Assembly (NCBI GenBank): GCA_041666945.1
Contig: JBAYFY010000003.1
Location: 7,392-71,391, forward strand
Origin: Candidatus Buchananbacteria bacterium
GTDB lineage: Bacteria > Patescibacteriota > Patescibacteriia > 2-01-FULL-39-33
Direction of reading: 5' to 3'
DNA length: 64,000 bases
The notes under the pieces are model-generated. The model made no database searches. It was not told the origin of the DNA and saw only the letters and a list, made by a program, of their open reading frames with translations. A program made the position numbers and the translations under genes. Shown here one piece after another: positions 17,901 through 54,135 of the stretch; position 1 is the stretch's first letter, and each line of letters starts with the position of its first letter.

Positions 17901-18258
17901 CTTTATTGACCTTATCCGGATCGCCTCCAGCCGTCATCCAAATGAAACCGCCGTAAATAATTAAAAGTACCACGATTACTCCCAATAAGCCGAAAATAAC
18001 TTGCAACACCCGGCCGATGTAAGTGGCTAACGAGGTTTCAGTGGCAATCCCGGCGGCTTGGCCGACCGCTTGCAGATTAGCATCTTGCGCCAGAACGGAA
18101 CCGGCTAAAAAGAGACCGCAAAGGGAAATAAAAAACACCAAAATCAGCGCCAATGCCTGCTTGGTGTTTAAAGTCACGATCAAAAACGACTTTAGTTTTC
18201 CGCCCCGGGCGGAATTTGATCGGGAGAACTTTTGCATGGGGACAAAAGCTTTTAACAT
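14941..18258 (-). CDS. Large (1105 aa) secreted Cys-containing surface protein with the same signal peptide plus pilin-like two-helix N-module as the giant protein, followed by a Gly-rich linker and beta-rich repeats.
   Basis: N-terminus ...ALALILVFFISLCGLFLAGSVLAQDA (signal), then GRVLQVIFGLLGVIVVLLIIYGGFIWMTAGGDPDKVNKAKKIIYNAIIGLVIIFAAFAITTWLMGIFG. This is near-identical in pattern to residues 55-125 of the 4196-aa protein. It is followed by GRGGGGGIPGGGIPGG. The stop lies 20 nt upstream of the giant gene start, so co-transcription is likely. Confidence 0.75.
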   Translation of the reverse strand: MLKAFVPMQKFSRSNSARGGKLKSFLIVTLNTKQALALILVFFISLCGLFLAGSVLAQDANLQAVGQAAGIATETSLATYIGRVLQVIFGLLGVIVVLLIIYGGFIWMTAGGDPDKVNKAKKIIYNAIIGLVIIFAAFAITTWLMGIFGRGGGGGIPGGGIPGGPDDWGRGGIGNGPIESVYPAPNQTNVPINTRIVVTFKSNIKPDSICVPNAAGYCSNSASANIEICEADTEATPRKCLENGDFTAQTFNGASTTVTQTPGNDKTFVFLTNSFLGKEDGANREFMVTLKNGIIASSTGESIFKLWKMDYYTWSFKTNGKLDLNPPQVVKYEVYPYPDTEPDLYSVSSQSTTGGSTTTLLSLVNLKAEKPVKLQGEYFLGRALKKELTNASGNVPAGFKAHVSTPSGFDLGAGTATFTVSSDGRSAAFTNDSPAPLTGKTFTIVSGVSFDLGNGLTIAAEGGTFTQGSQWRFTAETAVAGDTYVINNGANKINFIFASDAYANGVNVAKTQVGIDGQPATVNYTAVVKAGNIGGTLENLRNAIAGSGAKNLVDVSVSPAGSPAYLIIKPKGAGANNLSIDKSAADSIMTIVGDLSGKNKNQLKTQQGAAPDVYNNSIFFVTFNKAINPLNLTDTVKVQTKVGNTWIDIPADRIKYDVSNQYKTVQMTGIYPCGQNACGKERYCWIDPSAGAAAKSEPFQIVVAAAVLQSCQGKSVDDGSNVWCKRWGGQCEGGAYDRCKKDDIYYPQAALTDTSGITDMSGNSLNGNYTNAVDNQGKTVGVAEGRTGQAVSGALYGYSGKTNPYLVNDTFVIDNGIEKPTYDANPTKGDDFSWSFFVSTVIDDKSPLLFSIQPRGDESWGQDSSEVFGDPVVFAFDRLMNPVTLKPGFGYGEGLADRNFYTRFLMLGTVTQNANPVGYWAAVNNLDEGDVYGQGSGDGLIDYSVALVDHNPYDQAVTYAPGAGSGLESVTQNCYLPGSGPQNAAADSSALPAGWSYQANIEFNKCRYKIDDEYNTAGCVADVALTMPSPINKTNPASFGYMNCKDITGAKVNCAKTCMEPIATSADTTKFKYGSWVVTKDFPIADANGATKCCLGKCCDGNGCD

Positions 18259-19362: not shown

Positions 19363-20886
19363 TTAGTAATCCTCTCCGCCCGCATCGGGCGCGGCATCAT
19401 CAATCGCCGGTTCGGCCGGTTCATCTATCGTGTTTAAGTCATTCTCCGCTTCCCTTTCGCCATAGTCATGCTTGAAACGCTTATGAGACAAGGCGGCTTT
19501 GGTTTCTTCCGTATCAATAACGGCTACGCCTTCATCGCCGCTGTATTTTTCCAGTCGTTTGGTCAATTCGGTTTCAATCTTATTAAAATCAACTATTTCT
19601 TGCACGCCGCCGTTCATATCACGGAACATAATGGTGCCGTCACTGACTTCTTTTTGGCCTAAAATCAAGCAGTATTTGACTTTTGATCTGTTGGCTTGCT
19701 CCAGTTGCGCTTTTAAGCCGTCCTTATAAAAGGCCTGGGACAATTTGAACTTGTGGCGCAGCGCTTCATACAGCACCAGGGCTTTTTTCTTGGCGCTTTC
19801 ACCCAGTTGAGCGATAAACACATCGGGTTGGTAGGGTTCGGCCACGTCCAAATTCCTGTCTCGCAACTTGGCCACGACGCGATCCATGCCGATAGAAAAA
19901 CCGCAAGCCGGCGTATTTTCTCGTCCGCCCATAAGTTCCACCAAACCATCGTAACGTCCGCCGCCGCCCAAAGCGTTTTTGCCTTCAAGATCATCGGCTG
20001 ACCAATATTCAAAAATTGTCCGATTGTAATAATCCAAACCGCGAACAATCCAGGGGTTTAAAGCATACGGCAGATTGAGTTCATCCAAATATTCCAAAAC
20101 TTTCATGAAATGCTTCTTGCAATCATCATCCAGATAATCCAATATCTGCGGCACATCGGCTTTTAATTCTTGGCAACCCGGTTCTTTGCAATCAAGCAAG
20201 CGCAAAGGATTTTTGGCCAAACGGGATTCGCAATTCTCGCACAATTTTTTGACATGCTGGCGATAATATTTCACCAAGGCCTTTTTGTACTCCTCGCGGC
20301 AAACGGAACAACCGATGGAATTCACCTGGATCACCGCTTCTATGCCTAAATCATTCAGTAAATTATAACCCATCAAAATCAATTGGGCGTCCAAAGCCGG
20401 ACCATCCTCGCCGATTGCTTCATAGCCCGCTTGGTAAAATTGGCGGAAGCGCCCAGATTGCGGCTTCTCATGGCGGAACATTGATCCGTAATAAAAAAAC
20501 CTTACCGGTTGGGGTTGATTCAAAAAGCCGTGCTGGATGAAAGCGCGCACCACGCTGGCCGTGCCTTCAGGACGCAACACCAGATTATCCCCGCCCTGGT
20601 CAACAAAAGCGAACATTTCTTTTTCTACAATGTCCGTCTGTTTGCCGATGCCTTTGGCAAAAACATCAACATACTCCAAAACGGGCGTATCAATCTTGCC
20701 ATAGCCGTAATCATTGGCAATTTTAACAGCGGCATTTTCCGCCAATTGCCAATATTTCTGATCCTGGGGCAAGATGTCGCGCATACCGGTAACCGTAATA
20801 AACTCACGGCTCCGTTTTTTTCTGGGTTTATCAAGCGATTCTTTGTCAATATTTTTAGTTCGAGGCATACAATGAATAAATTCCAA
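19363..20886 (-). CDS. hisS: Histidyl-tRNA synthetase (class II), with an N-terminal basic extension and an acidic C-terminal tail.
   Basis: Motif 2 FRHEKPQSGRFRQFYQAGYEAIG and motif 3 GGGRYDGL. The Cys-rich HisRS insertion domain and the anticodon-binding domain are present. 507 aa against roughly 420 typical. Confidence 0.85.
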   Translation of the reverse strand: MEFIHCMPRTKNIDKESLDKPRKKRSREFITVTGMRDILPQDQKYWQLAENAAVKIANDYGYGKIDTPVLEYVDVFAKGIGKQTDIVEKEMFAFVDQGGDNLVLRPEGTASVVRAFIQHGFLNQPQPVRFFYYGSMFRHEKPQSGRFRQFYQAGYEAIGEDGPALDAQLILMGYNLLNDLGIEAVIQVNSIGCSVCREEYKKALVKYYRQHVKKLCENCESRLAKNPLRLLDCKEPGCQELKADVPQILDYLDDDCKKHFMKVLEYLDELNLPYALNPWIVRGLDYYNRTIFEYWSADDLEGKNALGGGGRYDGLVELMGGRENTPACGFSIGMDRVVAKLRDRNLDVAEPYQPDVFIAQLGESAKKKALVLYEALRHKFKLSQAFYKDGLKAQLEQANRSKVKYCLILGQKEVSDGTIMFRDMNGGVQEIVDFNKIETELTKRLEKYSGDEGVAVIDTEETKAALSHKRFKHDYGEREAENDLNTIDEPAEPAIDDAAPDAGGEDY

Positions 20887-24100: not shown

Positions 24101-26965
24101 TCAAGTTACGATGGAAATTAATTTTCCCTTAATGAAAATGATTTTTTTCGGTTCGCCAATTAAATATTTTTTGACGTTCTTATCAGCCAAAGCAGCTGTC
24201 TTAACCGCTTCTTCGGTTGCATCTGTCGGCAAAATCAACTTAGCCCTGATCTTGCCGTTAACCTGCACCGGAATTTCTTTTTCCGCATCAATAATTTTTT
24301 CCGGATCGTACTGCGGCCATGACTCTTTGAAGATGCTATCCGTATGACCGAGTTTCTCCCATAATTCTTCGGCTAAATGCGGAGCGAAGGGAGACAAGAT
24401 GATTAAAATCTTTTCCCATTGCTCCCGACTAACGGCTTTAGCGTCGGGAATTTCATTAAACAAAATCATCATGGCGGAAATAGCGGTATTATAACTCATC
24501 GTTTCAATATCTTCGCCGACTTTCTTGACGGTTTTATCAAGTATAACTTCTACTTCGCTCTTCTCTTCTTTACTTAGAGTTTGCCGGCCGATATCCCACG
24601 CCTTATTCAAAAACCGGTGCACGCCCAAGATATTCTTGGTGCTCCAGGGCTTCATATCTTCCAAAGGGCCCATAAACATTTCATACAGGCGGAAAGTGTC
24701 AGCGCCGTATTCTTTCAGGATGTCGTCGGGATTAACCACATTGCCGCGCGACTTAGACATTTTTTCGCCATCCTCGCCCAAAATCAAACCTTGATTGACT
24801 AACTTAGCAAACGGTTCTTCCTGCGGCACGACGCCGATGTCAAACAAAACCATATTCCAAAAACGGGCATAAAGCAAATGCAAAACCGCGTGTTCGGCTC
24901 CGCCGAGATACAAATCAACCGGCAGCCAATATTTCATTTTTTCGGCAGCAGCGATAGCCGTGTCATTATGCGGATCAATATAGCGCAGCCAGTACCAAGA
25001 CGAACCCGCCCATTGTGGCATGGTGTTGGTTTCGCGCTTAGCCGGACCGCCGCAGTTGGGACAAGTCGTATTCACCCACTCGTCAATAGTCGCCAGTGGC
25101 GATTCGCCTGTGCCGGTCGGTTCGTATTTTTCCACTTCCGGCAAAGTCAGAGGTAAGTCCTTCTCATCCAGAGTTACAGTTCCGCATTTCTTGCAATGCA
25201 CCAAGGGAATCGGTTCGCCCCAATATCTTTGGCGGGAAAAAACCCAATCGCGCAATTTATAATTAACCGCTTTCCGGCCATAACCCTTCTCTTCCAGCCA
25301 GGCCGTCATCTTGCTGATTGCTTCTGCCGGCGCCAAGCCGTTTAAAAATTCCGAATTAACCATCAAGCCGTTATTCACGTCCGTATAAGCAATATCGCCT
25401 TTCTTAATCCGTTCCAGCCAAATATCCATTTCGGCATGAACCATAAAATCAACCGTCAGTTTCTCCGGTTCCAGCCATAAAATCTCATTCTGCGCTTCTT
25501 TTTCTTCCTCGGCTATTTCAGCTTGTTCTTCATCAACCAAATCAAATTGGATTAAATTGGTATAAGACACCCGATTAACGCCTTTATGATTGGCAAAATA
25601 CTCGGCTCGCACTTGTCCGCCCAGAATCTTGCCGTTTGCCAAATGCTTATAGCCGGTTTCTTCCAGCACTTCCCGCTTAGCGGCGGCAAGCGGTTCTTCA
25701 CCTTCGCTCATTCCGCCCATGGGAAAAGTATTCCAGTTATATTTTTTTGAATGCAGAACAAGGATTTTTCCGGTTCGCGGATTGCGGACAACGACTTGAA
25801 CGTTTTTCCGTTCCACTTTTTCCTTGCCGTCCACTGGCGGATTTCTTTTGTCTATCCTTTCTGGAACAATGACTTCAATAATCGGCAAATCAAATTTTTT
25901 GGCAAATTCAAAATCCCTATCATCATGAGCCGGCACAGCCATAATCGCGCCCGTACCGTAAGACGCCAGGACATAATCGGAAATCCAAATTGGAATTTCC
26001 GCATTATTAACCGGATTGATTGCTTTAATGCCCTTCAACTCCATGCCGGTTTTATCTTTATTGAGTTCCGTCCGTTCCAAATCGGATTTATTTTTGGCAG
26101 AATCAATATAAGCTTCAACTTCAGCAAAATTAGAGATCTGGCCTTTCAATTCTTGCGCCAATTGATGTTCCGGCGCCAAAACCATGTAAGTCGCGCCGAA
26201 CAAGGTGTCGGGGCGAGTGGTATAGACAGTGATCTTTTTATCGCTTCCGGCAATCTTGAAGTCAACTTCGGCACCCTCGCTGCGGCCAATCCAATTTTTC
26301 TGCAAAATTTTAATGGACTGCGGCCAATCCAGCTGGTCAACGCCTTTCAGCAACCGATCGGCGTAAGCGGTGATCTTCAGCATCCACTGACGCATATCGC
26401 GGCGTTCCACTGCTGTGCCGCAACGATCGCATTTGCCGTTTTTGACTTCCTCATTGGCCAATCCGGTTTTGCACGACGGACAAAAATTAATCGGCACGGT
26501 CGCCTCGTAAGCCAAACCCTTTTTAAAAAGTTGCAAAAAAATCCACTGCGTCCATTTGTAATATTTCGGATCGGTCGTATCCACTTCCCTGTCCCAATCG
26601 TAAGAAAACCCGAGCGATTGGATTTGGCGCTTGAAGGTGGCGATGTTCTGTTCGGTGGTAAGCCGCGGATGCGTGCCGGTTTTGATGGCATAATTTTCCG
26701 CCGGCAAACCGAAAGCGTCCCAGCCCATCGGGTGCAAAACATTAAAACCTTTTAATCGCAAGTAACGGGAATAAATATCGGTTGCCGTGTAACCTTCCGG
26801 ATGACCGACATGCAGGCCCGCTCCCGACGGATAGGGAAACATATCCAAAATATACTTCTTGGGCTTGGCGCCGAAATCATCGGCTCGATCAATTTTGGTG
26901 TTCAGCCATTTTTTTTGCCACTTGGCTTCGCCGCCAGCGGCTAAAAACTCTTTATACGAAAGCAT
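24101..26965 (-). CDS. leuS: Leucyl-tRNA synthetase carrying an inserted NUDIX hydrolase domain of about 165 aa
   Basis: HVGHPEGY (HIGH), EKMSKSRGN (KMSKS), CP1 editing domain. Between ...FDLPIIEVI and [12 protein letters not shown] lies a domain with a perfect Nudix box [23 protein letters not shown] (GX5EX7REUXEEXGU). Confidence 0.9.
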
Positions 26966-41890: not shown

Positions 41891-42886
41891 CTAACACGCC
41901 GGAGCGAAACCCACAGCCGAGCCGAAATATCTTTCCGGCGTACTGACGAATCTTTCGAAGAATCGGACTACCCATTTCGAAGAACCGAGAACGCAAAAAA
42001 AAGATGCTGACTTGCAAAAATCAATCCGCGTTTCCAGCGGCGTATCGCAAGGACGAGTGTGATTATAATTATAAGGCGAGCATTCGGTGCCGGCGCAATC
42101 AATGCCCAAACAGCCGTATTGGCTGACAAGATCAGGATGAGTCAGCAAAGCGGCGGCCATAACATAATGGCATAAACCGAATTCATTCGCTTCATCATTC
42201 GCTTCATCTTCAAAACGGCGCCGGGCATGCCGGATACTGGCTCCGCGCCATCGCATGCCGAAATTAACCGGGATCACTAAATAATCGCCGGGCAGGTATG
42301 CTTCCATCTGGCCCAGAAAACCGCGAGTCCTGGCAGTGGGACGAAAACAGCCGTCATACTCCACTTCGTCACAGCAATTGCCCTCAAGAGGCAGCGACTT
42401 CTGAAGCAACCGAAACAATTCTTTCGCCGCCTTATAATAACCGCCCAGACAGGAAAACTTCGGCACAACAAGATCAAGCTCAAGCTTCTGGGGCAACGGC
42501 CGTTCCTCAAGATGCCGGTTTCCGGTAAGGCCAAGAATATGGGAGGCGTCTAAATCCCTGGTCAAATCCAGTTGGCGCCAAAAATCAAGCTGTTCTTCCA
42601 CCGAGCGGCGCCGAAAATCACTGGGGTAGACGCGGCTTGATTCCACCCGTTCCCTGGCATAAGGCAGTTTATCGGCATTGGGATCTTCATAACGCCCCTC
42701 AATCAAATCCTGCAACGGCTTCTTAATCCGTTTAGGATCAATGGTTCCCTCTCTAATGCGACGATGCAAATCTTCCGTTTGGTCAAAAATTCTTAGCCGG
42801 GCTACTTCCCGTTCAAGATAATTAATCGTCTCGTCCGCCGCTTTCAGCCGTTGCGCTTTTTCGTCTGCGACATTTTTTTCTGTCAT
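41891..42886 (-). CDS. Unrecognised family A, long member: N-terminal coiled coil plus conserved C-terminal core (PGDYLVIPVNFGMRWRGASIRHARRR...EFGLCHY...LLTHPD...FAPAC)
   Basis: GGAG RBS 8 nt before the internal ATG (MTEKNV...). The ORF track start is 28 codons further upstream with no RBS. Paralog of 50486..51346. Confidence 0.6.
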   Translation of the reverse strand: MTEKNVADEKAQRLKAADETINYLEREVARLRIFDQTEDLHRRIREGTIDPKRIKKPLQDLIEGRYEDPNADKLPYARERVESSRVYPSDFRRRSVEEQLDFWRQLDLTRDLDASHILGLTGNRHLEERPLPQKLELDLVVPKFSCLGGYYKAAKELFRLLQKSLPLEGNCCDEVEYDGCFRPTARTRGFLGQMEAYLPGDYLVIPVNFGMRWRGASIRHARRRFEDEANDEANEFGLCHYVMAAALLTHPDLVSQYGCLGIDCAGTECSPYNYNHTRPCDTPLETRIDFCKSASFFCVLGSSKWVVRFFERFVSTPERYFGSAVGFAPAC

Positions 42887-43059
42887 GACGAATTCTCCTT
42901 TGTCAAAGTCCTTGCCCTGTTGGCACTGCGCCGCTTGGGCCAAGCGAAATCCCAACCATTGGGATATCAAATAATGATATCAGGCCAGACAAATTTTGTC
43001 AAAGACCGCGGTTTGGCGGTTTAATTGAAAAAGCGACCGTGGCCGGCCGCTTCTTCTGG

Positions 43060-46000
43060 CTAATTAATTTTTTCAATCTTTATCTTCACTTTTTCGCCAT
43101 TGATGTTAACCGGCTTGGCGTCGCTGTCCGCTTCCGCGATTTCCTGGGTGAGGGTGGATTTTTTCAGTTCTGCGTTAAGCGCCGGATCGGCCAGGACTTT
43201 TTTCACTATTTCTCCTTCGCTTTGCCAGCTTAATCTGATTCTGTCTTTAATGGTCAAGCCGGCGTCCTTGCGCAAAGTGTTGATCGTCCTGACCAATTCG
43301 CGCCAAGCGCCTTCAATTTTCAACTCATCGGTCAATTTGGTGTCCAAGTCAATTTTAATTTCCGTCCCGCCGGCAAATTCCAAATTCTTAAGGTTCAGTT
43401 TGTCTTTAATCAAATTTATGAGTTGCTGTTTATACGATTCTTCGGCTAACGCCAGACCGTAAACCGTGGCCTGATTAAGCGGCTGCCTGATTTTTATCTT
43501 GGCCTCGGCTCGGGCGGACAAACCCATCTCTTCTATGGTAGCGACTAAGCTCATTTGCTCCTTCAATTTGTTGCTGGCGTCTGTTGCTTCCCGGCTGCCG
43601 TAAAATTCCTCATCAACCTGCGGCCAGGTCTCCAAATGAACCGATTCCAGTTTGCCGCCGATCTGCTTGTAAACATATTCGGCGATAAAAGGCGTGAAAG
43701 GCGCCATGACTTTGGATAATTCCATCAGAACGAAGCGGAAGGTGGCGATGGCTTGACGCTTGTCCGTTTCATCGTCGCCTTTCAGGCGGTCGCGCGACGA
43801 TTGCAGCCAGCGAGTGGAAAATTCATCTATAAATTCGGCCAGTGGGCGGGTGGCGCGCGGCAAATCATACGCTTCCATGTTTTTGGTCACCTCCAAAATC
43901 AATAAATTCAATTTTACCAGCAGCCATTTATCCAAAATATTTACGCTGTCGGCCGCTAACGACGCCGTCGGTTCCGAGGCCTCGTACAGCTTATAAAAAC
44001 TCAAAATATTGTTCAAAAGCATAGTAACTTTCTGCATCGCTTCCTTGACGCCGTCATCGGAAAAATTCAAATTCTCCGCGGCCATGACCGGCGCGGTCAA
44101 AAGATAGAAACGCAAAGCGTCGGCGCCGTACTTGTCCATGATGATTTTAGGTTCGGTGTAGTTCAGTAAATGCTTGGACATCTTTTTGCCGTCTTCGGCC
44201 AGAACGATGCCGTTGACGATGACGTTTTTAAACGCCTCGCCGCCTCTGATGGCCGCGGCAATGATATGCAAATAATAAAACCAGGCGCGCGTCTGATCTA
44301 CGCCTTCGGCGATAAACTGCGCCGGAAAGCCGGCCAGGAATTTTTCCTGATTGGCAAACGGGTAGTGCTGTTGGGCGTAAGGCATGGAACCGGAATCAAA
44401 CCAGGTATCCAGCACATCGGGAATCCTCGTCATCTTTTGGCCGCATTTGGGGCAGACGATTTGCCATTGATCCACGAAATGTTTGTGCAAATCGGTTATT
44501 TTCTGTTTTATCTCCAGCACTTGCCCTTTATCCAAAGCTAGTTCTTTGAAAGTCCGGCTCGGCTCGTAACCGTAAAGCTTGCCCAAAAGCGACCTGATCG
44601 CATCTTCATGGCTGACTAACAGGATATTCTTGCCTTTGTGCTTCTCATTCAATTCTTGGTATAGAGCCAGCATTCTTTCGGTCACCTGCCTGACGCTTTC
44701 GCCGCCGGGATAAGCCGCATCCCAATTGTCTTTCCATTTGGCGATAAACTCCCGGGCTCCGGCATCAATATCGGATTGCTCTTCCAGTCCGCCGGCGTTG
44801 AGTTCGTTCAGGCGGGAATCAAAAACCAATTCCGCGCCCGTGGCCGCGGCAATAATTTGCGCCGTTTCCTTGGCGCGCAACACTTCGGAAGAAACAATCA
44901 GATTAATTTTTTTGTCTTGCAGTCCGCTGGCGGCCGCTTGGATTTGCTTTTGGCCGGCGGCTGTCAAAGGATGGATGTTTAAGCCGCTGCTGAACACGTG
45001 CTTGATATTTTTTTCCGCTTCGCCGTGCCTGATGGCGAAAAAATTATTCCGATCTATTTTCAATTCTTCCAGTTCGGCCACGCTGCCGATGACTTTAATC
45101 TCGCCGCACTGGCAACGCCATAAAGGAATGACGCTGGCCCAGAAACGCTGGCGGGAAATCGACCAGTCGCGCGCGCCCAAAAGCCACTTGCCGAAACGGC
45201 CTTCCTTGATATGCGCCGGCGACCAATTAATTCCCTTAGCGGTCTCTAAGGCCTTCGGCTTGATATCCGTCACCTTGACAAACCATGAATCGGTGGCGTA
45301 GTTAATGAGCGGCGTATCGCAACGCCAGCAATGCGGATAGCTGTGCTCGTATTCGGCACTGGCAAAAAGCAGATTATTTTTGTCCAAATATTCAATGACT
45401 TTTTTGTCGGTCGCTTTGGTGTCTCCTGCCGGTTTGACGTTCAGGCCGGAAAAATCCGCGACTTCATCTTTAAAATTGCCGCTGAACGTAACATTCTGGA
45501 TCATGGGCAGGTTTTTCTCTCGGCCCAGTTGCATGTCCTCTTCGCCGTAAGCCGGAGCGATATGCACTACGCCCGTGCCGTCCTCGGTGGTCACGAAATT
45601 CGCTGATACGATAGTATACAAATTATCTTTATTAGGCAGATCCTTATCTAAATAATATGGGAATAATGGTTTGTATTTTTTACCAACTAATTCTGAACCT
45701 TTAAATTCTTTTACAATTTTATATTCTTGATTACCAAAAACTTTTTCTAATAATGCTTTTGCTAAAATCAACTGGATTCCCGCCTGCGCGGGAATGACGA
45801 TGGACACATAATCAACGTCCTCACCCACTGCGAGCGCCACATTGCCGGGCAAAGTCCAAGGCGTAGTGGTCCAAGCCAAAACAAAAGTATTGTCATTAGT
45901 AACAAAATCGCCGATTTTCTGTCCCGCCGCCAATTTAAATTTAGCGGTAACCGACAAATCCTTGATATCCTTGTAGCCCTCGCTGACTTCCTGCTGGCTT

Positions 46001-46563
46001 AAAGTCGTTTCGCATCTCGGACAAATATGCATGGATTTGTAACCTTGGTAAATCAAGCCCTTGTCGTATAATTCCTTAAACACCCACCAGATTGATTCCA
46101 TGTAAGGCAAATCCATGGTTTTGTAAGAGTCGGCCATATCCGCCCAACGTCCGAAACGGGCGATGGTTTTCTTCCATTCCTCAACATAGACCAAAACTTT
46201 GCTGCGGCAATACTCATTGAATTTGCCGATGCCGTAATCCTCAATATCTTTTTTGCTTTTGAATCCCAATTCCTTCTCCACGATATTTTCAATCGGCAAG
46301 CCGTGGCAATCCCAGCCCCAGCGGCGTTCCACGTAACGACCGCGCATCGTCCAGAATCTTGGCACCGCGTCCTTCATCAAGCTGGCCACCATGTTGCCGT
46401 AGTGCGGCGTGCCCGTGGCAAAGGGCGGGCCGTCGTAAAAGCTGTGGGCCTCGCCGTCTTTTGTCTGCTCCAGCGATTTCTCAAAAATCTTGTTATCGGC
46501 CCAAAATTTTTGGATTTCCCGTTCTCTTTCCGGAATCGGATTAATCCACTTCTTTTCTTCCAT
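43060..46563 (-). CDS. ileS: Isoleucyl-tRNA synthetase carrying an inserted histidine-phosphatase (phosphoglycerate-mutase-like) domain of about 185 aa between its zinc-knuckle halves
   Basis: PHYGNM (HIGH-type), KMSKH, CP1 editing domain (TTPWTLPGNVALAV). Between CQCGEIKVIGSVAELEE and CPKCGQKMTRIPDVLDTWFDSGS lies FFAIRHGEAEKN...LLVSHEDAIRSL (RHG and SH motifs). True start is MEEKKW at 46563; the ORF-track N-terminus (MVFFCFNNFNY) translates the leader U-run. Confidence 0.9.
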   Translation of the reverse strand: MEEKKWINPIPEREREIQKFWADNKIFEKSLEQTKDGEAHSFYDGPPFATGTPHYGNMVASLMKDAVPRFWTMRGRYVERRWGWDCHGLPIENIVEKELGFKSKKDIEDYGIGKFNEYCRSKVLVYVEEWKKTIARFGRWADMADSYKTMDLPYMESIWWVFKELYDKGLIYQGYKSMHICPRCETTLSQQEVSEGYKDIKDLSVTAKFKLAAGQKIGDFVTNDNTFVLAWTTTPWTLPGNVALAVGEDVDYVSIVIPAQAGIQLILAKALLEKVFGNQEYKIVKEFKGSELVGKKYKPLFPYYLDKDLPNKDNLYTIVSANFVTTEDGTGVVHIAPAYGEEDMQLGREKNLPMIQNVTFSGNFKDEVADFSGLNVKPAGDTKATDKKVIEYLDKNNLLFASAEYEHSYPHCWRCDTPLINYATDSWFVKVTDIKPKALETAKGINWSPAHIKEGRFGKWLLGARDWSISRQRFWASVIPLWRCQCGEIKVIGSVAELEELKIDRNNFFAIRHGEAEKNIKHVFSSGLNIHPLTAAGQKQIQAAASGLQDKKINLIVSSEVLRAKETAQIIAAATGAELVFDSRLNELNAGGLEEQSDIDAGAREFIAKWKDNWDAAYPGGESVRQVTERMLALYQELNEKHKGKNILLVSHEDAIRSLLGKLYGYEPSRTFKELALDKGQVLEIKQKITDLHKHFVDQWQIVCPKCGQKMTRIPDVLDTWFDSGSMPYAQQHYPFANQEKFLAGFPAQFIAEGVDQTRAWFYYLHIIAAAIRGGEAFKNVIVNGIVLAEDGKKMSKHLLNYTEPKIIMDKYGADALRFYLLTAPVMAAENLNFSDDGVKEAMQKVTMLLNNILSFYKLYEASEPTASLAADSVNILDKWLLVKLNLLILEVTKNMEAYDLPRATRPLAEFIDEFSTRWLQSSRDRLKGDDETDKRQAIATFRFVLMELSKVMAPFTPFIAEYVYKQIGGKLESVHLETWPQVDEEFYGSREATDASNKLKEQMSLVATIEEMGLSARAEAKIKIRQPLNQATVYGLALAEESYKQQLINLIKDKLNLKNLEFAGGTEIKIDLDTKLTDELKIEGAWRELVRTINTLRKDAGLTIKDRIRLSWQSEGEIVKKVLADPALNAELKKSTLTQEIAEADSDAKPVNINGEKVKIKIEKIN

Positions 46564-46596
46564 ATAATTAAAATTATTAAAACAAAAAAACACCAA

Positions 46597-46838: not shown

Positions 46839-47036
46839 TTATTCCTGCCAAGAAATCGCCTGTGTCGGGCAAGCGCCGATGGCTTCGTCAATCTTGGCTT
46901 TTTCCGCTTCATAATCGGCTTCTAATACGGTAGCGATCATCTTGCCTTCAACTTCCGCCACTTTAAAAACTGCCGGGCAAATGGCTTCGCAAGTGCCGCA
47001 AGCGATGCACGCTTCGCTGACTGATGGTTTTGACAT
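46839..47036 (-). CDS. Small 2x[4Fe-4S]/[3Fe-4S]-type ferredoxin
   Basis: 65 aa. CIACGTCEAICP ... IGACPTQAI. Confidence 0.65.
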   Translation of the reverse strand: MSKPSVSEACIACGTCEAICPAVFKVAEVEGKMIATVLEADYEAEKAKIDEAIGACPTQAISWQE

Positions 47037-47046
47037 AGTAATTTTA

Positions 47047-47430
47047 TTATTTATTTTTGATGATCTCCTTGACTTTTTGCGACAAGGTCCCGGGAGTAAA
47101 ATCTGATTTGATCAGATAGCCGTTGACTTTCAACCCGGTCGCGCGTTCTTTATCTTTCTTCTGCGTCAAATTGCTCCAAATATAAACCTTGAGTTTGGCC
47201 AGTTCTTTGTCTTTTTTGATTTGTCCGAACAAATTCCAACCGTCCAATTCCGGCATCATAATATCCAACAAAACCAAATCCGGTTTGAACCGCTTAAGCT
47301 CCGTCAAGGCCTTGGTGCTGTCGCCGATAATAACCGTATCAATGCCTTCCATTTGCATCTTCATGCGATAAATCTCGGCTAAATCCGGCTCGTCTTCAAT
47401 GAGCGCGACTTTGTATTTTAATTCCGTCAT
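47047..47430 (-). CDS. Stand-alone CheY-like response-regulator receiver protein
   Basis: 127 aa. VALIEDEPDL, LVLLDIMMPELDGW (phospho-acceptor Asp), KVYIWSNL... (T/S and K positions). No output domain. Confidence 0.75.
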   Translation of the reverse strand: MTELKYKVALIEDEPDLAEIYRMKMQMEGIDTVIIGDSTKALTELKRFKPDLVLLDIMMPELDGWNLFGQIKKDKELAKLKVYIWSNLTQKKDKERATGLKVNGYLIKSDFTPGTLSQKVKEIIKNK

Positions 47431-47474: not shown

Positions 47475-49199
47475 CTACATTCGCTCCAAAGTTTCTATGC
47501 CCAAAATGTTCAAACCGTTGACCAGAACCTGCTTCACGCCGCCGATTAACGCCAAACGAGCCAGACGCAAATTCTCTTCCGAGTTCAATACTGGCACTTC
47601 CTGGTAATAACCGGCAAAAATTTTGGCGGTCTCAAACAAATATTTGCTTAAAACGCTGGGTTCAAATTCCCGCGCCGCTTCGCTTATCGTCTGCGGGAAT
47701 TGCGCCAGCTTTAACAACAGTTCTTTTTCCGCGCGCTCCTTTAACAACGAATAATCGGGGGCTTTGATCGCTAAGTCGTTTTTTCTTAAAATACTGTTGA
47801 TGCGGGTTACGGTATACTGCAAGTAGGGCCCGGAATAACCGTCAAAAGACAGGGCTTCGCTCGGATCAAAAACAATAACGCTATTTTTGCCCACTCTAAG
47901 CATGGAAAATTTGATAGCGGCCAAAGCGATTTTCTCCGCGGTTTCCGCCACTTCTTTCTCGCTCCAATCCTTATGGCGCTTGCCGGTTTCTTGGGAGGCC
48001 AAAGCGGTCATTTCGCGCAAAAAATCCTCAAACAAGACAACGTTGCCCTGGCGCGAAGACATGGCGCCTGCCGGCAAGGTAACGAATTCGTAAGCGATGT
48101 GCTTGACCTTCTTTTTAAAACCCATGATCTCCAAGGTTTTGAAAAATTGCTGGAAGTAAAAGCTCTGGCGGCTGTCCACCACCACATAAGAAGCGTCAAT
48201 TTTATATTTATCAAATTTCAGTTTGGCTAAAGCCAATTCCTTGGTGGAATAAAGCGAGGTGCCGTCGGACTTGAGCAATAAAAATTGCTTCAGGCCGTAT
48301 TGTTCCAAATCAATAATCACCGCGCCTTCGGATTTTTTGGCCACGCCTTGGGCCAATAATTCTTCCACGATTTTCTTGCCCGGTTTTTCCACTTCGCTCT
48401 CATAAAAAACCTTGTCAAACTTGACGCCTAAAATTTTGTAGATGCCGTTAAACTCTTCTAATGACCAAGTCCGCGTCTTTTTCCATAAGTTGGTCCAGTA
48501 TTTGTCGCCGGCTTCCAATTTATTCTGAACTTCTTGCGCTTCCTTTTTGTACTCCTCGTTCTCTTCCGCTTTTTGTACCGCTTCCGTATAGATCTTACCC
48601 AAATATTGGCCCTTGTGGCTGGCTGGTTCCGGTTCTCCTTGATGGAATTTATTCAGCGCCCATAGGCATTTGGCCACATGGCTGCCGATGTCTCCGATAT
48701 AATTGGCGGCAATGACTTTCTGCCCGGCCAAACGGTAAAGATTGACCAAAGCCGAGCCCAAAACCGCGTTGCGCAAATGGCCGACATGGAATTCTTTATG
48801 GGTATTGGGCTGGGAATATTCAATCATCACTTTTTCCTTCTCCCCAGCCAATCGGCCGTATTTTTCCTGTTTTTTGCCGATATCAGTTAACAAACCCTTG
48901 GCCAAATATTTTTCTTTAAGAAAAAAATTCAAATACGGGCCGAAATTCTGCGCCGATTTGACGCCGGCCGGCAATTTGATTTTATTCTTGATTTCCAAAG
49001 CCACTTGATTGGGCGAGATGCGCAAAAGCTTAGTCAAATAAAAACACGGTACGGCCCAGTCGCCCAGGGACGCTTCCGGCGGACGGGTAATCTCCAACTG
49101 GCTGATATCGATTTCCTGACCGACGGCTTTTTCAACGGCGGACAAGATTTCCTTTTGCAATTTGTCTATGAAATACGGCATAGTCAATGGCTTTACCAT
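47475..49199 (-). CDS. argS: Arginyl-tRNA synthetase (start ambiguous: 49256, 49199 or 49181)
   Basis: HVGHLRNAVLG (HIGH), GDIGSHVAKC, anticodon-binding DALR-type C-terminal domain. Confidence 0.85.
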   Translation of the reverse strand: MVKPLTMPYFIDKLQKEILSAVEKAVGQEIDISQLEITRPPEASLGDWAVPCFYLTKLLRISPNQVALEIKNKIKLPAGVKSAQNFGPYLNFFLKEKYLAKGLLTDIGKKQEKYGRLAGEKEKVMIEYSQPNTHKEFHVGHLRNAVLGSALVNLYRLAGQKVIAANYIGDIGSHVAKCLWALNKFHQGEPEPASHKGQYLGKIYTEAVQKAEENEEYKKEAQEVQNKLEAGDKYWTNLWKKTRTWSLEEFNGIYKILGVKFDKVFYESEVEKPGKKIVEELLAQGVAKKSEGAVIIDLEQYGLKQFLLLKSDGTSLYSTKELALAKLKFDKYKIDASYVVVDSRQSFYFQQFFKTLEIMGFKKKVKHIAYEFVTLPAGAMSSRQGNVVLFEDFLREMTALASQETGKRHKDWSEKEVAETAEKIALAAIKFSMLRVGKNSVIVFDPSEALSFDGYSGPYLQYTVTRINSILRKNDLAIKAPDYSLLKERAEKELLLKLAQFPQTISEAAREFEPSVLSKYLFETAKIFAGYYQEVPVLNSEENLRLARLALIGGVKQVLVNGLNILGIETLERM

Positions 49200-49304
49200 A
49201 TCACAAAAAAGCAAAAATGGCAATGAAAAAGGCACTGATTTGTTCAGTGCCGGCAAAGTGCCAAAAATTATTCCGTCGCTTTTTTATTCGCGGCCCGGTA
49301 AGCG

Positions 49305-52374: not shown

Positions 52375-54135
52375 ATGGGGACTAAAAACGAACAACTTGA
52401 TAAAATCCGCCATTCCACTTCCCACATCATGGCTTATGCTGTGCGGGAAATTTTTGGCGACAAAATTAAATTCGCCATTGGCCCGACGATTGACGACGGT
52501 TTTTACTATGATTTTGATTTGGGCGATAAAACCTTCACTACTGAAGACCTCAAAGCGATTGAAAAAAGAATGGCGGAACTGATCAAGAAAAAACTGCCGT
52601 TTGAAAAATCTGATTTGCCGGTCAAGGAAGCGCTGAAAAAAATGTCCGACCAGCCCTACAAACAAGAACTGATTAATGACTTAGCCAAGGCCGGAGAAAC
52701 CGCCGTCAGTTTTTACGCTGTCGGCGACTTTACCGATCTCTGCCGCGGCCCTCACGTGGAAAATACCAAGGAGTTGGGCGTATTTAAATTAATGAAAACC
52801 GCCGGCGCTTATTGGCGCGGCGACGAGAAAAACAAAATGCTGCAAAGAATCTACGGTACGGCTTTTGAAACCAAAGAACAATTGGCTGAATATTTGAAAA
52901 TGCTGGAAGAAGCGGAAAAACGGGATCACCGCACACTCGGCAAAGAATTGGATTTATTTGTTTTTTCCGATTTAGTCGGCAAGGGCTTGCCAATATTCGG
53001 TCCAAAGGGCGCGACCATTAAAAGAGAGCTGGAAAGGTTTACCATTGATGAAGAATTGAAGCGAGGATATCATCATGTCGTTACTCCGGATTTGGCTAAA
53101 GTCGATCTTTACAAAAAATCCGGGCACTATCCTTACTATAAAGATACGATGTACCCGGTAATGAAAATCGACGAGGAGGAATTGATTCTCAAACCGATGA
53201 CTTGTCCGCACCATTTCATGTTTTATAAATCAGAACCGCACAGTTACCGCGAGTTGCCATACCGTATCGGCGAGATCGCTCATCAATATCGTTATGAAAA
53301 AAGCGGCGAACTGTCCGGATTAACCCGTGTCAGAATGTTCTGTCTTGCCGATGCCCATATTATTGCCGCCAAAGATCAGGCCAAGCAAGTCATCAAGGAA
53401 GTTTTGGAATTAATTGACTTTATTAATGGAACGCTGGGTTTAGTCAAGGGCAAGGATTATCGTTATCGCCTGTCACTCGGCGACCGCTCTGATAATAAAA
53501 AATATTATAAGGATGATGCTTCATGGGATTATGCCGAAAATGTCTTGCGTGAGGTTCTGACCGAAGTTAAAGCGCCATTTTATGAGGCCGCCAATGAGGC
53601 CGCATTTTACGGTCCGAAAATAGATATTCAGGTAAAGAAGGTTTCGGGCAGCGAGGAAACGGCTTTTACTGTCCAATACGATTTTGTTATGCCGGAACGC
53701 TTCGACCTATTTTTTACAAATAAAGAAGGCGAGCAAGAAAAGCCGATTGTTATCCATCGTTCCTCCATTGGTTGTTTGGAGAGAACAATGGCATTTTTGA
53801 TCGAGCATTATGCCGGCGCCTTCCCTACTTGGCTGTCGCCGGTGCAAGCCGTGGTTATCCCGGTGTCGGAAAAATTCACTGACTATGGCCAGAAAGTTTA
53901 TGACGAACTGCTTGCCGCCGGCGTGCGCGTCAAACTGGATGATGCCGACGAATCATTGGGTAAGAGGATTAGAAACGCCGAGAAACAAAAAACTCCCTAT
54001 ATCTTAGTAGTGGGAGAAAAAGAAGCCGCCGCTAAAACCGTGTCTGTGCGCAAGCGTGGCGAAGGCGATCTGGGCAGTCAGCCGCTTAACCAATTCATTG
54101 AGGAAATACAAAAAGAAATTAAAGAAAAGGAATAA
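52375..54135 (+). CDS. thrS: Threonyl-tRNA synthetase lacking the N-terminal TGS domain
   Basis: Begins at the editing/SAD domain (RHSTSHIMAYAV). Class II motifs (FRIGEIAHQYRYEKSGELSGLTRVRMF; GPKIDIQV). Anticodon-binding domain. Confidence 0.9.
   Translation: MGTKNEQLDKIRHSTSHIMAYAVREIFGDKIKFAIGPTIDDGFYYDFDLGDKTFTTEDLKAIEKRMAELIKKKLPFEKSDLPVKEALKKMSDQPYKQELINDLAKAGETAVSFYAVGDFTDLCRGPHVENTKELGVFKLMKTAGAYWRGDEKNKMLQRIYGTAFETKEQLAEYLKMLEEAEKRDHRTLGKELDLFVFSDLVGKGLPIFGPKGATIKRELERFTIDEELKRGYHHVVTPDLAKVDLYKKSGHYPYYKDTMYPVMKIDEEELILKPMTCPHHFMFYKSEPHSYRELPYRIGEIAHQYRYEKSGELSGLTRVRMFCLADAHIIAAKDQAKQVIKEVLELIDFINGTLGLVKGKDYRYRLSLGDRSDNKKYYKDDASWDYAENVLREVLTEVKAPFYEAANEAAFYGPKIDIQVKKVSGSEETAFTVQYDFVMPERFDLFFTNKEGEQEKPIVIHRSSIGCLERTMAFLIEHYAGAFPTWLSPVQAVVIPVSEKFTDYGQKVYDELLAAGVRVKLDDADESLGKRIRNAEKQKTPYILVVGEKEAAAKTVSVRKRGEGDLGSQPLNQFIEEIQKEIKEKE

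What the first reader, a model, noticed from the sequence alone, without database searches (positions are those of the whole stretch)
44490..45050. Histidine-phosphatase (PGM-like) domain inserted into the zinc-knuckle region of isoleucyl-tRNA synthetase
Between the split zinc-binding motifs CQCG...(insert)...CPKCG, where bacterial IleRS normally has about 50 residues, there are roughly 185 extra residues. The insert begins FFAIRHGEAEKN (the RHG catalytic motif of the histidine phosphatase superfamily) and contains LLVSHEDAIRSL (the second catalytic His), with Arg and Glu residues at the expected spacings.

Inference: this is a potentially active phosphatase or phosphomutase embedded in IleRS. 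It parallels the Nudix-in-LeuRS insertion at 25375..25870: both class I enzymes have acquired a nucleotide or phosphoester hydrolase module. Possible roles are editing-like clearance of 2'/3'-phosphorylated or aminoacylated nucleotides, or moonlighting in nucleotide salvage in a reduced genome.
Basis: partly seen in the sequence, partly recalled or inferred. Interest (0 to 1): 0.65.

Follow-up and report, generated by a model that had tools for sequence, protein, structure and literature searches.

The report
Active phosphatase domain nested inside IleRS
The isoleucyl-tRNA synthetase of this Patescibacteria (CPR) genome carries a complete, apparently active histidine-phosphatase domain spliced into one of its surface loops; in related bacteria the same phosphatase is a separate gene just upstream of ileS, a consistent partnership that the searchable literature does not describe.

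Summary
The only IleRS gene in the window (43060..46563, minus strand, 1167 aa) has a clean 181-183 aa insertion (44503..45045) between the CxC and CxxC halves of the zinc hairpin in subdomain CP3. The spacing is 217 aa here and 34 aa in all 66 insert-less relatives.

The insert is a branch-1 histidine phosphatase (Pfam E 2.6e-39; AF2 pLDDT 97.5; Foldseek TM 0.81-0.88 to CobC, GpgP and PspA). Its catalytic residues (R512, H513, R563, E587, H652) are essentially invariant in 97 synthetase-embedded copies. It is under purifying selection (dN/dS 0.07-0.15).

It falls below the family cut-offs for dPGM, CobC and SixA. It has no mobile-element features and is not an assembly artefact.

New here: the nested form occurs widely but patchily across many Patescibacteria lineages. 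Where the same phosphatase subfamily is free-standing, it usually lies immediately upstream of ileS, typically as argS-HP-ileS (42 of 80 metagenome loci). It also occurs at two other IleRS loops and in ValRS.

Best reading: a bifunctional IleRS plus phosphomonoesterase, the covalent form of a conserved ileS-linked phosphatase. IleRS does not need it in cis. The substrate is unknown. The LeuRS-Nudix parallel is real but the two insertions can occur separately.

The parts
43060..46563 (-). ileS: type-2 (eukaryote/archaea-like) isoleucyl-tRNA synthetase, 1167 aa, host of the insertion
   Evidence: NCBIfam TIGR00392 ileS 864 bits against a cut-off of 621. Pfam tRNA-synt_1, Anticodon_1 and DUF5915. 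Best PDB matches are yeast, Thermus and IleRS2 structures (E 1e-208 to 7e-198) against 6e-91 for S. aureus IleRS1. Identical to a MAG Candidatus Buchananbacteria protein.
44503..45045 (-). Nested histidine-phosphatase (branch 1) domain, residues 507-687 of the 1167-aa protein
   Evidence: Pfam PF00300 E 2.6e-39. Single-point insertion relative to yeast IleRS. AF2 pLDDT 97.5, pTM 0.93. Foldseek TMq 0.81-0.88 to CobC, GpgP and PspA.
45025..45030 (-). R512-H513 of the RHG motif (H513 is the predicted phospho-accepting nucleophile)
   Evidence: Codons AGG CAC. R and H are each conserved in 97/97 synthetase-embedded HP domains.
44875..44877 (-). R563, second phosphate-pocket arginine
   Evidence: Conserved in 96/97 embedded domains.
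44803..44805 (-). E587, predicted general acid/base
   Evidence: E in 93/97 and D in 3/97 embedded domains.
44608..44610 (-). H652, second catalytic histidine (VSHED)
   Evidence: Conserved in 97/97 embedded domains.
45106..45114 (-). C484-x-C486, first half of the CP3 zinc knuckle
   Evidence: Invariant in an alignment of 64 IleRS with and without the insert. Coordinates.
44443..44454 (-). C704-x-x-C707, second half of the CP3 zinc knuckle
   Evidence: Invariant in the same alignment. Coordinates.
46393..46404 (-). HIGH signature, here HYGN
   Evidence: The fourth position is H in 116 of 120 homologues and N in 3, including this one.
44170..44184 (-). KMSKS signature, here KMSKH
46839..47036 (-). 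65-aa ferredoxin-like ORF, conserved neighbour between the response regulator and ileS
   Evidence: Syntenic Fer4 genes in relatives.
47047..47430 (-). Single-domain response regulator, conserved neighbour
   Evidence: Pfam PF00072 E 9e-18. Synteny.
47475..49256 (-). argS (arginyl-tRNA synthetase), upstream member of the conserved argS...ileS neighbourhood. Relatives with a free-standing phosphatase have the order argS-HP-ileS.
   Evidence: Pfam tRNA-synt_1d, DALR_1 and Arg_tRNA_synt_N. argS-HP-ileS loci.

Best explanation
The segment is a complete, catalytically competent histidine phosphatase of the short phosphatase type (like PhoE, CobC, GpgP and PspA). It is nested at the tip of the CP3 zinc hairpin of the genome's syntenic IleRS, so the protein is a two-enzyme polypeptide. 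The synthetase half keeps its signature motifs, its zinc cysteines and its editing-domain motifs and should charge tRNA-Ile as usual. The phosphatase half should hydrolyse a phosphomonoester through a phospho-His513 intermediate, with R512, R563 and H652 forming the phosphate pocket and E587 acting as acid/base. The nested domain is the covalent form of a phosphatase gene that is linked to ileS throughout Patescibacteria: in other lineages it is free-standing and lies directly upstream of ileS (argS-HP-ileS, with gaps of a few bases or overlaps). Nesting or adjacency therefore keeps the phosphatase co-expressed with, and probably physically close to, IleRS. IleRS does not require the domain in cis, because near-identical orthologues lack it. 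Shown: domain identity, insertion site, conservation, selection, distribution and linkage. Inferred: enzymatic activity, one-to-one co-expression and the reason for the association. The substrate is unknown. My working guess is a small phosphorylated metabolite or nucleotide rather than a macromolecule, because only the catalytic core is conserved and the substrate-facing cap is not.
For: Domain and site. Fold: AF2 pLDDT 97.5; Foldseek hits to phosphatase-type HPs at TMq 0.81-0.88. In the full-length model (pLDDT 88.8, pTM 0.80) the junction blocks score 86-93, so the connectors are short and ordered. Catalytic residues in 97 embedded domains: R 97/97, H 97/97, R 96/97, E 93/97, H 97/97. Selection: dN/dS 0.07-0.145 in the insert against 0.06-0.08 in the flanks, similar dS, and GC3 0.597 against 0.598. 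Same orthologue: the argS-RR-fdx-ileS order is shared with insert-less relatives and the window has no second HP. Not needed in cis: 54 of the 120 closest IleRS carry it and 66 do not, interleaved on the tree; one pair is 96% identical in the flanks, one with and one without the insert. Distribution: 77 of the best 80 loci from GTDB species representatives are nested at the same site, across many Patescibacteria lineages including a complete Wolfebacteria genome. Linkage: free-standing HPs of the subfamily lie next to ileS in L039, L057, L094, L095 and L097. Of 80 metagenome loci, 42 have the HP immediately upstream of ileS (37 with argS upstream) and 23 are nested. An IleRS tree requires at least 7 switches between nested and adjacent. 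Only the catalytic core is conserved: mean identity is 40% in the insert against 62% in the flanks.
Against: No enzymatic data exist and the substrate is not identified. The domain reaches the cut-off of no NCBIfam equivalog. Conserved adjacency can occur without shared function: from my own knowledge, ribF-ileS in Proteobacteria is an example. In the other direction, repeated insertion at three IleRS loops and into ValRS may mean the phosphatase acts directly in the aminoacylation cycle, which the small-metabolite guess would miss. The trees are simple neighbour-joining trees without support values. dS is about 1, close to saturation. I could not obtain model coordinates, so the geometry of the HP active site relative to the synthetase site is unknown.
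Confidence: 0.7

Rival explanations
1. The phosphatase is a working accessory of the synthetase. Held at CP3 (or bound as a partner when free-standing), it would act on a participant in the aminoacylation cycle. Examples: removing the products PPi or AMP locally to drive activation, or removing a 3'-phosphate or 2',3'-cyclic phosphate from a damaged tRNA-Ile end so that it can be charged.
For: The linkage to ileS is consistent: nested in 77/80 genome loci, and adjacent in 42 plus nested in 23 of 80 metagenome loci. The spacing is tight, from overlaps to a few bases. Further HP copies occur at two other IleRS loops, in tandem, and in ValRS. A related HP is fused to Sua5/TsaC, another adenylate-forming, PPi-releasing enzyme of tRNA metabolism. 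A Liptonbacteria free-standing HP lies next to a tRNA_bind gene. In yeast IleRS the CP2-CP3 linker lines the pocket for the tRNA CCA end.
Against: Near-identical IleRS work without the domain. The HP surface outside the catalytic core is poorly conserved, so there is no sign of a conserved macromolecular interface. From my own knowledge, no branch-1 HP is known to act on PPi or RNA ends. The geometry was not testable. The other aaRS genes in the window (ArgRS, HisRS, ThrRS) show no phosphatase or Nudix domain in Pfam.
Confidence: 0.22
2. The domain is a cofactor-dependent phosphoglycerate mutase (dPGM) that supplies a glycolytic step from inside IleRS in a reduced genome.
For: It belongs to the same superfamily. 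JGI names one free-standing relative 'probable phosphoglycerate mutase'. PGAM structures appear among the Foldseek hits.
Against: All dPGM models score far below their cut-offs: TIGR01258 40.6 against 81.7, matching only the N-terminal half; dPGM_arch 94 against 225; GpmB 86 against 261. The domain is 181 aa, whereas the dPGM chains in the hit list are about 228-254 residues. TM normalised to the target is 0.55-0.68 for dPGMs and 0.72-0.79 for short phosphatases. Its presence is patchy among close relatives, which would be odd for a core glycolytic enzyme.
Confidence: 0.04
3. The domain is a SixA-like phosphohistidine (or phospho-aspartate) phosphatase that regulates the two-component system encoded in the same neighbourhood.
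For: A single-domain response regulator lies between argS and ileS. A histidine kinase is nearby in relatives. In L097 the free-standing HP is directly followed by the response regulator. SixA belongs to the same superfamily.
Against: The SixA model scores 36 bits against a cut-off of 74.5 and covers only residues 2-70. Insert-less relatives L005 and L006 keep the response regulator with no HP in the locus fetched. In L095 the tight argS-HP-ileS operon has no response regulator in the locus shown.
Confidence: 0.04
4. The domain is a catalytically dead structural or ligand-sensing module, a mobile or intein-like insertion, or an assembly artefact.
For: Its distribution is patchy among close relatives, and sequence divergence is raised next to the junction in one closely related pair.
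Against: The catalytic residues are essentially invariant and selection is purifying. There are no Hint/intein or endonuclease hits and no repeats flanking the insert ends. GC3 equals that of the host gene. The same architecture appears in many independent assemblies, including a complete genome.
Confidence: 0.02

Closest known systems
Short phosphatase-type members of the histidine phosphatase superfamily, branch 1: CobC alpha-ribazole phosphatase (6nru, 6e4b), GpgP Rv2419c (4qih, 6s2q), PspA phosphoserine phosphatase (4ij6), PhoE (1h2e)
   Same: Same fold and size class (TMq 0.81-0.88). Same catalytic set RHG...R...E...H. Best sequence matches in the PDB (E 2e-15 to 1e-8).
   Different: Only 24-28% identical. 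Below every equivalog cut-off. Nested inside another enzyme rather than free-standing. Substrate unknown.
Type-2 (eukaryote/archaea-like) IleRS, e.g. S. cerevisiae IleRS (7d5c, 8wnd), T. thermophilus IleRS (1ile), bacterial IleRS2/MupA
   Same: The host protein aligns end to end apart from the insert. It has the CP3 subdomain with the Cys4 knuckle and the DUF5915 C-terminal region.
   Different: A 183-aa enzyme domain is inserted at the position of yeast residue 496 in CP3. The HIGH motif reads HYGN.
Rv2228c-type bifunctional RNase H / acid phosphatase (NCBIfam NF005567)
   Same: A branch-1 HP joined to an enzyme of nucleic-acid metabolism. The insert matches the HP half at E 1.3e-25. RNase H-HP proteins are among the relatives found.
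   Different: That is an end-to-end fusion, not a nested insertion. The score of 90.6 is far below the cut-off of 326.
Synthetases carrying extra catalytic domains: the CP1 editing domain of class Ia enzymes, NCBIfam 'ileS_w_GNAT' (NF040702), and the LeuRS-Nudix of this same window
   Same: The same principle: a hydrolase or transferase module inserted into or added to a class Ia synthetase.
   Different: A different domain family and a different site (CP3 tip). No role in editing is shown. The GNAT model matches only through the IleRS core (293 bits against 1999).
6-phosphofructo-2-kinase / fructose-2,6-bisphosphatase
   Same: A classic bifunctional protein whose phosphatase half is a branch-1 HP (PDB hits 1k6m and 1bif).
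   Different: There the two activities act on the same metabolite and the domains are in tandem. Here no shared substrate is known and the HP is nested.

Membership tests
Histidine phosphatase superfamily, branch 1 (Pfam PF00300) | Profile match above the curated threshold | tested here: met
   135.3 bits against a cut-off of 21.7, E 2.6e-39, covering profile positions 3-177 of 194.
Histidine phosphatase superfamily, branch 1 (Pfam PF00300) | RHG motif with the nucleophilic His, two further phosphate-pocket residues (Arg, His) and an acidic proton donor | tested here: met
   R512, H513, R563, E587 and H652 are present. They are invariant or nearly so in 42 aligned sequences and in 97 embedded domains.
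Histidine phosphatase superfamily, branch 1 (Pfam PF00300) | The alpha/beta fold of the superfamily | tested here: met
   AF2 pLDDT 97.5, pTM 0.93. Foldseek probability 1.00 and TMq up to 0.88 to solved HPs.
Histidine phosphatase superfamily, branch 1 (Pfam PF00300) | Phosphatase or mutase activity through a phospho-histidine intermediate | not testable with these tools
   Requires an enzyme assay.
Cofactor-dependent phosphoglycerate mutase (GpmA / dPGM) | Score above the curated equivalog/subfamily cut-off, with full-length coverage including the C-terminal region | tested here: not met
   TIGR01258 40.6 against 81.7, covering only residues 4-91. NF038349 94.3 against 225. PRK14115-14120 all below 35 bits against cut-offs above 300.
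Alpha-ribazole phosphatase CobC | Score above the curated equivalog cut-off | tested here: not met
   TIGR03162 100.8 against 162.9. PRK15004 90.3 against 250.
SixA phosphohistidine phosphatase | Score above the curated equivalog cut-off | tested here: not met
   TIGR00249 36.3 against 74.5, covering residues 2-70 only.
Isoleucyl-tRNA synthetase (ileS) | Equivalog model above its cut-off | tested here: met
   TIGR00392 864.2 bits against 621.4, in two stretches split by the insert.
Isoleucyl-tRNA synthetase (ileS) | Class I signature motifs HIGH and KMSKS, and the CP1 editing-domain motifs | tested here: met
   HYGN (variant) and KMSKH. In one search, W231, T232, T233, P235 and W236 are invariant and T234 is nearly invariant, so the WTTTPW motif is kept. 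GTGVVHIAPAYG is present in the translation.
Isoleucyl-tRNA synthetase (ileS) | Aminoacylation of tRNA-Ile | not testable with these tools
   Requires an enzyme assay. Indirect support: the gene lies in the ileS position of the conserved argS...ileS gene order.
Type-2 (eukaryote-like) IleRS | Closer to eukaryotic, archaeal and IleRS2 sequences than to bacterial IleRS1; C-terminal region of the DUF5915 type rather than the bacterial zinc-binding domain | tested here: met
   E 1e-208 to 7e-198 for yeast, IleRS2 and Thermus chains against 6e-91 for S. aureus IleRS1. DUF5915 E 1.7e-21.
Intein or other self-mobile insertion | Hint/splicing domain, homing endonuclease, or terminal repeats at the insert ends | tested here: not met
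   No such Pfam hits. No flanking repeats. The insert has the GC3 and dS of the host gene.

The most novel reading that the evidence does not exclude
In Patescibacteria, IleRS (and sometimes ValRS) has a dedicated phosphatase partner, either translationally coupled upstream or built into CP3, that takes part in the aminoacylation cycle itself. It might remove PPi or AMP locally in cells that keep PPi high for PPi-dependent glycolysis, or heal a phosphorylated tRNA 3' end before charging. That would be a third catalytic activity of a class Ia synthetase, alongside synthesis and editing.
Probability: 0.22. Interest if true: 0.85.

Novelty: new variant of a known kind. Interest (0 to 1): 0.62.

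Why it matters
Aminoacyl-tRNA synthetases are among the most conserved enzymes. In bacteria they rarely gain new catalytic modules, and the CP1 editing domain is the one well-understood example. Here a second, unrelated hydrolase is nested in IleRS in many Patescibacteria lineages. The same phosphatase is the upstream operon partner of ileS where it is not nested. That pattern meets both standard genomic criteria for a functional link, gene fusion and conserved neighbourhood. If the phosphatase serves the synthetase, it shows a new requirement of translation in ultra-small symbiotic bacteria. If it does not, it is a clear natural example of domain nesting used to tie a housekeeping enzyme to an essential gene. 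It also shows, together with Nudix, alpha/beta-hydrolase, rhodanese and GIY-YIG insertions, that class Ia synthetases of this group are unusually tolerant hosts. In both cases the protein can be expressed and the hypotheses tested directly. Current annotation is uninformative or misleading: 'class I tRNA ligase family protein' for the nested form and 'phosphoglycerate mutase' for the free-standing form.

Tried and rejected
1. Chance motif match: rejected (Pfam E 2.6e-39).

2. Assembly chimera or frameshift: rejected. The ORF is continuous and the same architecture occurs in many independent MAGs and a complete genome.

3. Extra IleRS paralogue: rejected on synteny with insert-less orthologues.

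4. Recent foreign DNA: rejected. GC3 is 0.597 against 0.598, and dS in the insert is about the same as in the flanks.

5. Intein or mobile element: no Hint or endonuclease domain and no flanking repeats.

6. dPGM, CobC, SixA, PspA or GpmB identity: all below curated cut-offs.

7. Obligatory co-occurrence with LeuRS-Nudix: not supported. Matching contig lengths between searches gives HP+/Nudix+ three times (111094, 249088, 957791), HP-/Nudix+ once (64611) and HP-/Nudix- three times (172811, 53441, 77550).

8. Searching the 5.8-billion-protein index with the insert alone returned only 13 free-standing HPs and missed the embedded ones. In the 50%-identity representative library the query's own cluster was not among the listed hits; I presume it is represented by an insert-less IleRS.

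9. Contexts of two free-standing HPs with no Patescibacteria attribution (P0122, P0126) showed no ileS or other translation gene nearby and were uninformative.

10. The afdb50 structure library was unavailable.

11. Seven literature searches found nothing on HP or Nudix domains in synthetases of these bacteria.

12. Geometry of the HP active site relative to the synthetase site could not be measured, because model coordinates are not exposed.

13. No tRNA gene in the window and no Rfam element in 40-50 kb. The antisense ORFs 44726..45301 and 44170..44541 have no family hits and are probably shadow ORFs.
Full report
OBSERVATION. The minus strand carries one long ORF, 43060..46596. The likely start is the ATG at 46563 (MEEKKW...). 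That gives 1167 aa, identical to a protein of a MAG assigned to Candidatus Buchananbacteria (Patescibacteria, CPR). Pfam splits tRNA-synt_1 around a His_Phos_1 match (E 2.6e-39, 135 bits against a cut-off of 21.7). Against yeast IleRS (8wnd), residues 10-506 align to chain 10-496 and residues 688 onward align to chain 496 onward, so this is a single-point insertion. Between the CxC and CxxC cysteines there are 217 residues here, 34 in all 66 insert-less relatives and 214-240 in 54 insert-bearing relatives. The only correction is that the normal spacing is 34 aa, not about 50.

HOST AND SITE. The host is a genuine ileS (TIGR00392, 864 bits against 621) of the eukaryote/archaea-like type 2. It has a DUF5915 C-terminus, and its best solved relatives are yeast, Thermus and IleRS2. 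The published domain map of yeast IleRS places residues 459-526 in subdomain CP3 and states that the CP2-CP3 linker lines the pocket for the tRNA CCA end (PMC7955072). The insertion corresponds to yeast residue 496, which is the tip of CP3. The four cysteines (C484, C486, C704, C707) are invariant whether or not the insert is present, so the zinc hairpin is kept and the new domain extends from its tip. KMSKS (KMSKH) and the editing-domain motifs are present. HIGH reads HYGN, a rare variant found in 3 of 120 homologues. The gene lies in the same argS, response regulator, small ferredoxin, ileS order as insert-less orthologues. It is therefore the ordinary ileS and not an extra copy.

THE INSERT. 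Residues 507-687 (44503..45045) carry the full catalytic set of branch-1 histidine phosphatases: R512-H513-G514, N519, R563, E587, H652. These residues are invariant or nearly so in an alignment of embedded and free-standing relatives. In 97 synthetase-embedded domains drawn from diverse clusters the counts are R 97/97, H 97/97, R 96/97, E 93/97 (plus 3 D) and H 97/97. AlphaFold2 gives pLDDT 97.5 and pTM 0.93. Foldseek places the model with short phosphatase-type members (CobC, GpgP Rv2419c, PspA, a riboflavin-pathway HP) at TMq 0.81-0.88. The dPGM chains in the hit list are longer, and TM normalised to the target is lower for them. No NCBIfam equivalog is reached: CobC 100.8 against 162.9, archaeal dPGM 94 against 225, GpmB 86 against 261, SixA 36 against 74.5. 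The domain is thus a generic and apparently active phosphomonoesterase of unassigned specificity. In the full-length model (pLDDT 88.8, pTM 0.80) the 10-residue blocks spanning both junctions score 86-93, which suggests short ordered connectors.

SELECTION AND AGE. Against the two closest insert-bearing orthologues, dN/dS is 0.07-0.145 in the insert and 0.06-0.08 in the flanks, with similar dS of about 1. GC3 is 0.597 in the insert and 0.598 in the flanks. Across 54 homologues the insert is more divergent than the flanks (mean identity 40% against 62%) and only the catalytic core is conserved at 90% or more. No repeats flank the insert ends and no intein or endonuclease domains are present. 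The insert is old, fully adapted to its host gene in composition, and under purifying selection.

DISTRIBUTION. Of the 120 closest IleRS, 54 carry the insert at exactly this site and 66 do not. The two states are interleaved on a tree built from 912 flank columns. One pair (P0097 and P0101) is 95-96% identical at the DNA level on both sides, but 568 nt in one are replaced by 25 nt in the other. Amino-acid differences are concentrated in the roughly 17 residues upstream of the junction. I take this as a hint of allelic replacement by recombination, but it is one case only. A scan of one genome per GTDB species found at least 574 related stretches. Of the best 80 loci, 77 have the HP nested at this IleRS site. 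Their titles name Buchanan-, Doudna-, Yanofsky-, Moran-, Wolfe- (including complete genome CP011209.1), Colwell-, Lipton-, Nomura-, Campbell- and Harrisonbacteria and Paceibacterota.

LINKAGE TO ileS, THE MAIN NEW RESULT. The other three of the best 80 genome loci were one ValRS-like host (L086) and two free-standing HP genes, both next to an insert-less ileS (L039, L057). Three more free-standing HPs from the same clade gave the same picture. P0226 overlaps the start of ileS. P0200 lies in argS-HP-ileS with gaps of 3 and 1 nt. P0417 lies in argS-x-HP-RR...ileS. A metagenome scan seeded with these free-standing HPs returned 80 loci. In 42 the HP is immediately upstream of insert-less ileS (37 of them with argS upstream; inferred spacing -12 to +96 nt in 41). 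In 23 it is nested at CP3. The remaining 15 are truncated or unlinked. On an IleRS tree of 125 loci, at least 7 switches between nested and adjacent are needed. A search of 1.84 billion representative proteins showed further HP copies. One site is in the loop after WFDSGS (about residues 737-746; for example a Peregrinibacteria IleRS, P0215). Another is at the boundary between the catalytic and anticodon-binding domains (about residues 862-877). There are also tandem pairs at CP3, and a class-I N-terminal half followed by four HP repeats. ValRS hosts exist too (P0186, P0291). This HP subfamily is therefore tied to ileS by both gene fusion and gene neighbourhood.

THE LeuRS PARALLEL. LeuRS at 24101..26965 carries a Nudix domain (aa 386-513, E 2.4e-14) with an intact Nudix box. 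This insertion is also widespread and patchy. Some LeuRS add an alpha/beta-hydrolase or a GIY-YIG domain. Some IleRS combine HP with Nudix and rhodanese. Matching contig lengths between searches gives three genomes with both insertions, one with Nudix only and three with neither. The two insertions are therefore separable.

MECHANISM. Shown: an intact HP active site, purifying selection, a precise and structurally ordered nesting at the CP3 tip, dispensability in cis for IleRS, and conserved linkage to ileS. Inferred: the protein is bifunctional, and the HP half hydrolyses a phosphomonoester through phospho-His513. Nesting would then be the covalent form of a translationally coupled operon pair and would guarantee co-expression and proximity. 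The variable cap and the interchange with free-standing forms point to a small-molecule substrate that does not need a fixed interface with IleRS or tRNA. That is my working choice (0.7 for the package of shown and directly inferred points).

MAIN RIVAL. The main rival (0.22) is that the phosphatase serves the aminoacylation cycle directly, by PPi or AMP removal or by healing tRNA ends. The strength of the linkage, the repeated insertions, the ValRS cases, a Sua5/TsaC-HP fusion and a tRNA_bind neighbour all point that way. The dispensability in cis and the lack of any known precedent count against it.

OTHER READINGS. The dPGM, SixA-like, dead-module and mobile-element readings are each unlikely, for the reasons given under rival explanations.

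KNOWN OR NEW. These proteins are in public databases under names such as 'class I tRNA ligase family protein' or 'isoleucyl-tRNA synthetase'. Seven full-text searches found no description of an HP or Nudix domain in synthetases of these bacteria. Synthetases gaining domains is a known theme. An active HP nested in CP3, together with its conserved operon form, is a new variant of it.

CAVEATS. No activity data exist. The trees are neighbour-joining without support values. dS is close to saturation. The scans return only the best 80 loci and are biased towards relatives of the query. Many record titles are automatic labels ('uncultured Candidatus Saccharibacteria', 'uncultured Gammaproteobacteria'), so phylum-level naming should be treated with care. 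The three-dimensional relation of the two active sites was not measurable here.

Noticed in passing
window 24101..26965 (-), Nudix about 25427..25810: LeuRS carries a Nudix domain after the editing domain (Pfam E 2.4e-14) with an intact Nudix box [23 protein letters not shown]. Homologues with and without it are interleaved. Some LeuRS also carry an alpha/beta-hydrolase (PF06821/PF00561) or a GIY-YIG domain.
   Followed up: partly
P0052 (1305 aa), P0087 (1423 aa), homologues of the window IleRS: Some IleRS combine the CP3 phosphatase with a Nudix domain in the CP1 region. P0087 also has a C-terminal rhodanese domain.
   Followed up: partly
window 46393..46404 (-): The HIGH signature of this IleRS reads HYGN. 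The fourth residue is His in 116 of 120 close homologues and Asn in only 3.
   Followed up: partly
P0188 (387 aa); P0232, P0253 (about 400 aa): Phosphatases related to the insert are also fused to Sua5/YciO/YrdC (threonylcarbamoyl-AMP synthase family, t6A tRNA modification) and to RNase H, as in Rv2228c.
   Followed up: no
L003 7647..8588 (Candidatus Liptonbacteria, JACQKW010000015.1): A free-standing phosphatase 35% identical to the insert lies 30 nt downstream of a 107-aa tRNA_bind (PF01588) gene. No ileS is seen within 8 kb.
   Followed up: no
L057 1938..4880: The ileS just downstream of a free-standing phosphatase is interrupted by an in-frame TAA at about IleRS codon 402. This could be a split gene, a pseudogene or a sequencing error. 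There are no in-frame TGA codons, so it is not genetic code 25.
   Followed up: partly
P0134 (1161 aa, contig 3947 nt): A class-I synthetase N-terminal half (23% identical to IleRS) is followed by four tandem histidine-phosphatase repeats. It may be cut off by the contig end.
   Followed up: no
L001 and L002 (P0097 and P0101): Two IleRS genes are 95-96% identical in DNA and differ by presence or absence of the insert. Amino-acid differences are concentrated in the roughly 17 residues upstream of the junction, as expected for a recombination tract. P0097 also has a divergent, shortened C-terminus.
   Followed up: partly
window 19363..20886, 24101..26965, 43060..46563, 47475..49256, 52375..54135: Five aminoacyl-tRNA synthetase genes (HisRS, LeuRS, IleRS, ArgRS, ThrRS) lie within 35 kb. 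No tRNA gene is found in the whole window.
   Followed up: no
window 2330..14920 (-) and 14941..18258 (-): A 4196-aa ORF is followed by a 1105-aa ORF with a type IV secretion system pilin domain (PF18895) and a weak Ig-like (Big_5) match below the curated cut-off. These may be giant surface proteins; that reading is from my own knowledge of symbiotic CPR cells and was not tested.
   Followed up: no
window 41891..42970 (-): A 359-aa ORF directly downstream of ileS has no Pfam match. The genes in this position in relatives (325-326 aa) also have no Pfam match.
   Followed up: no
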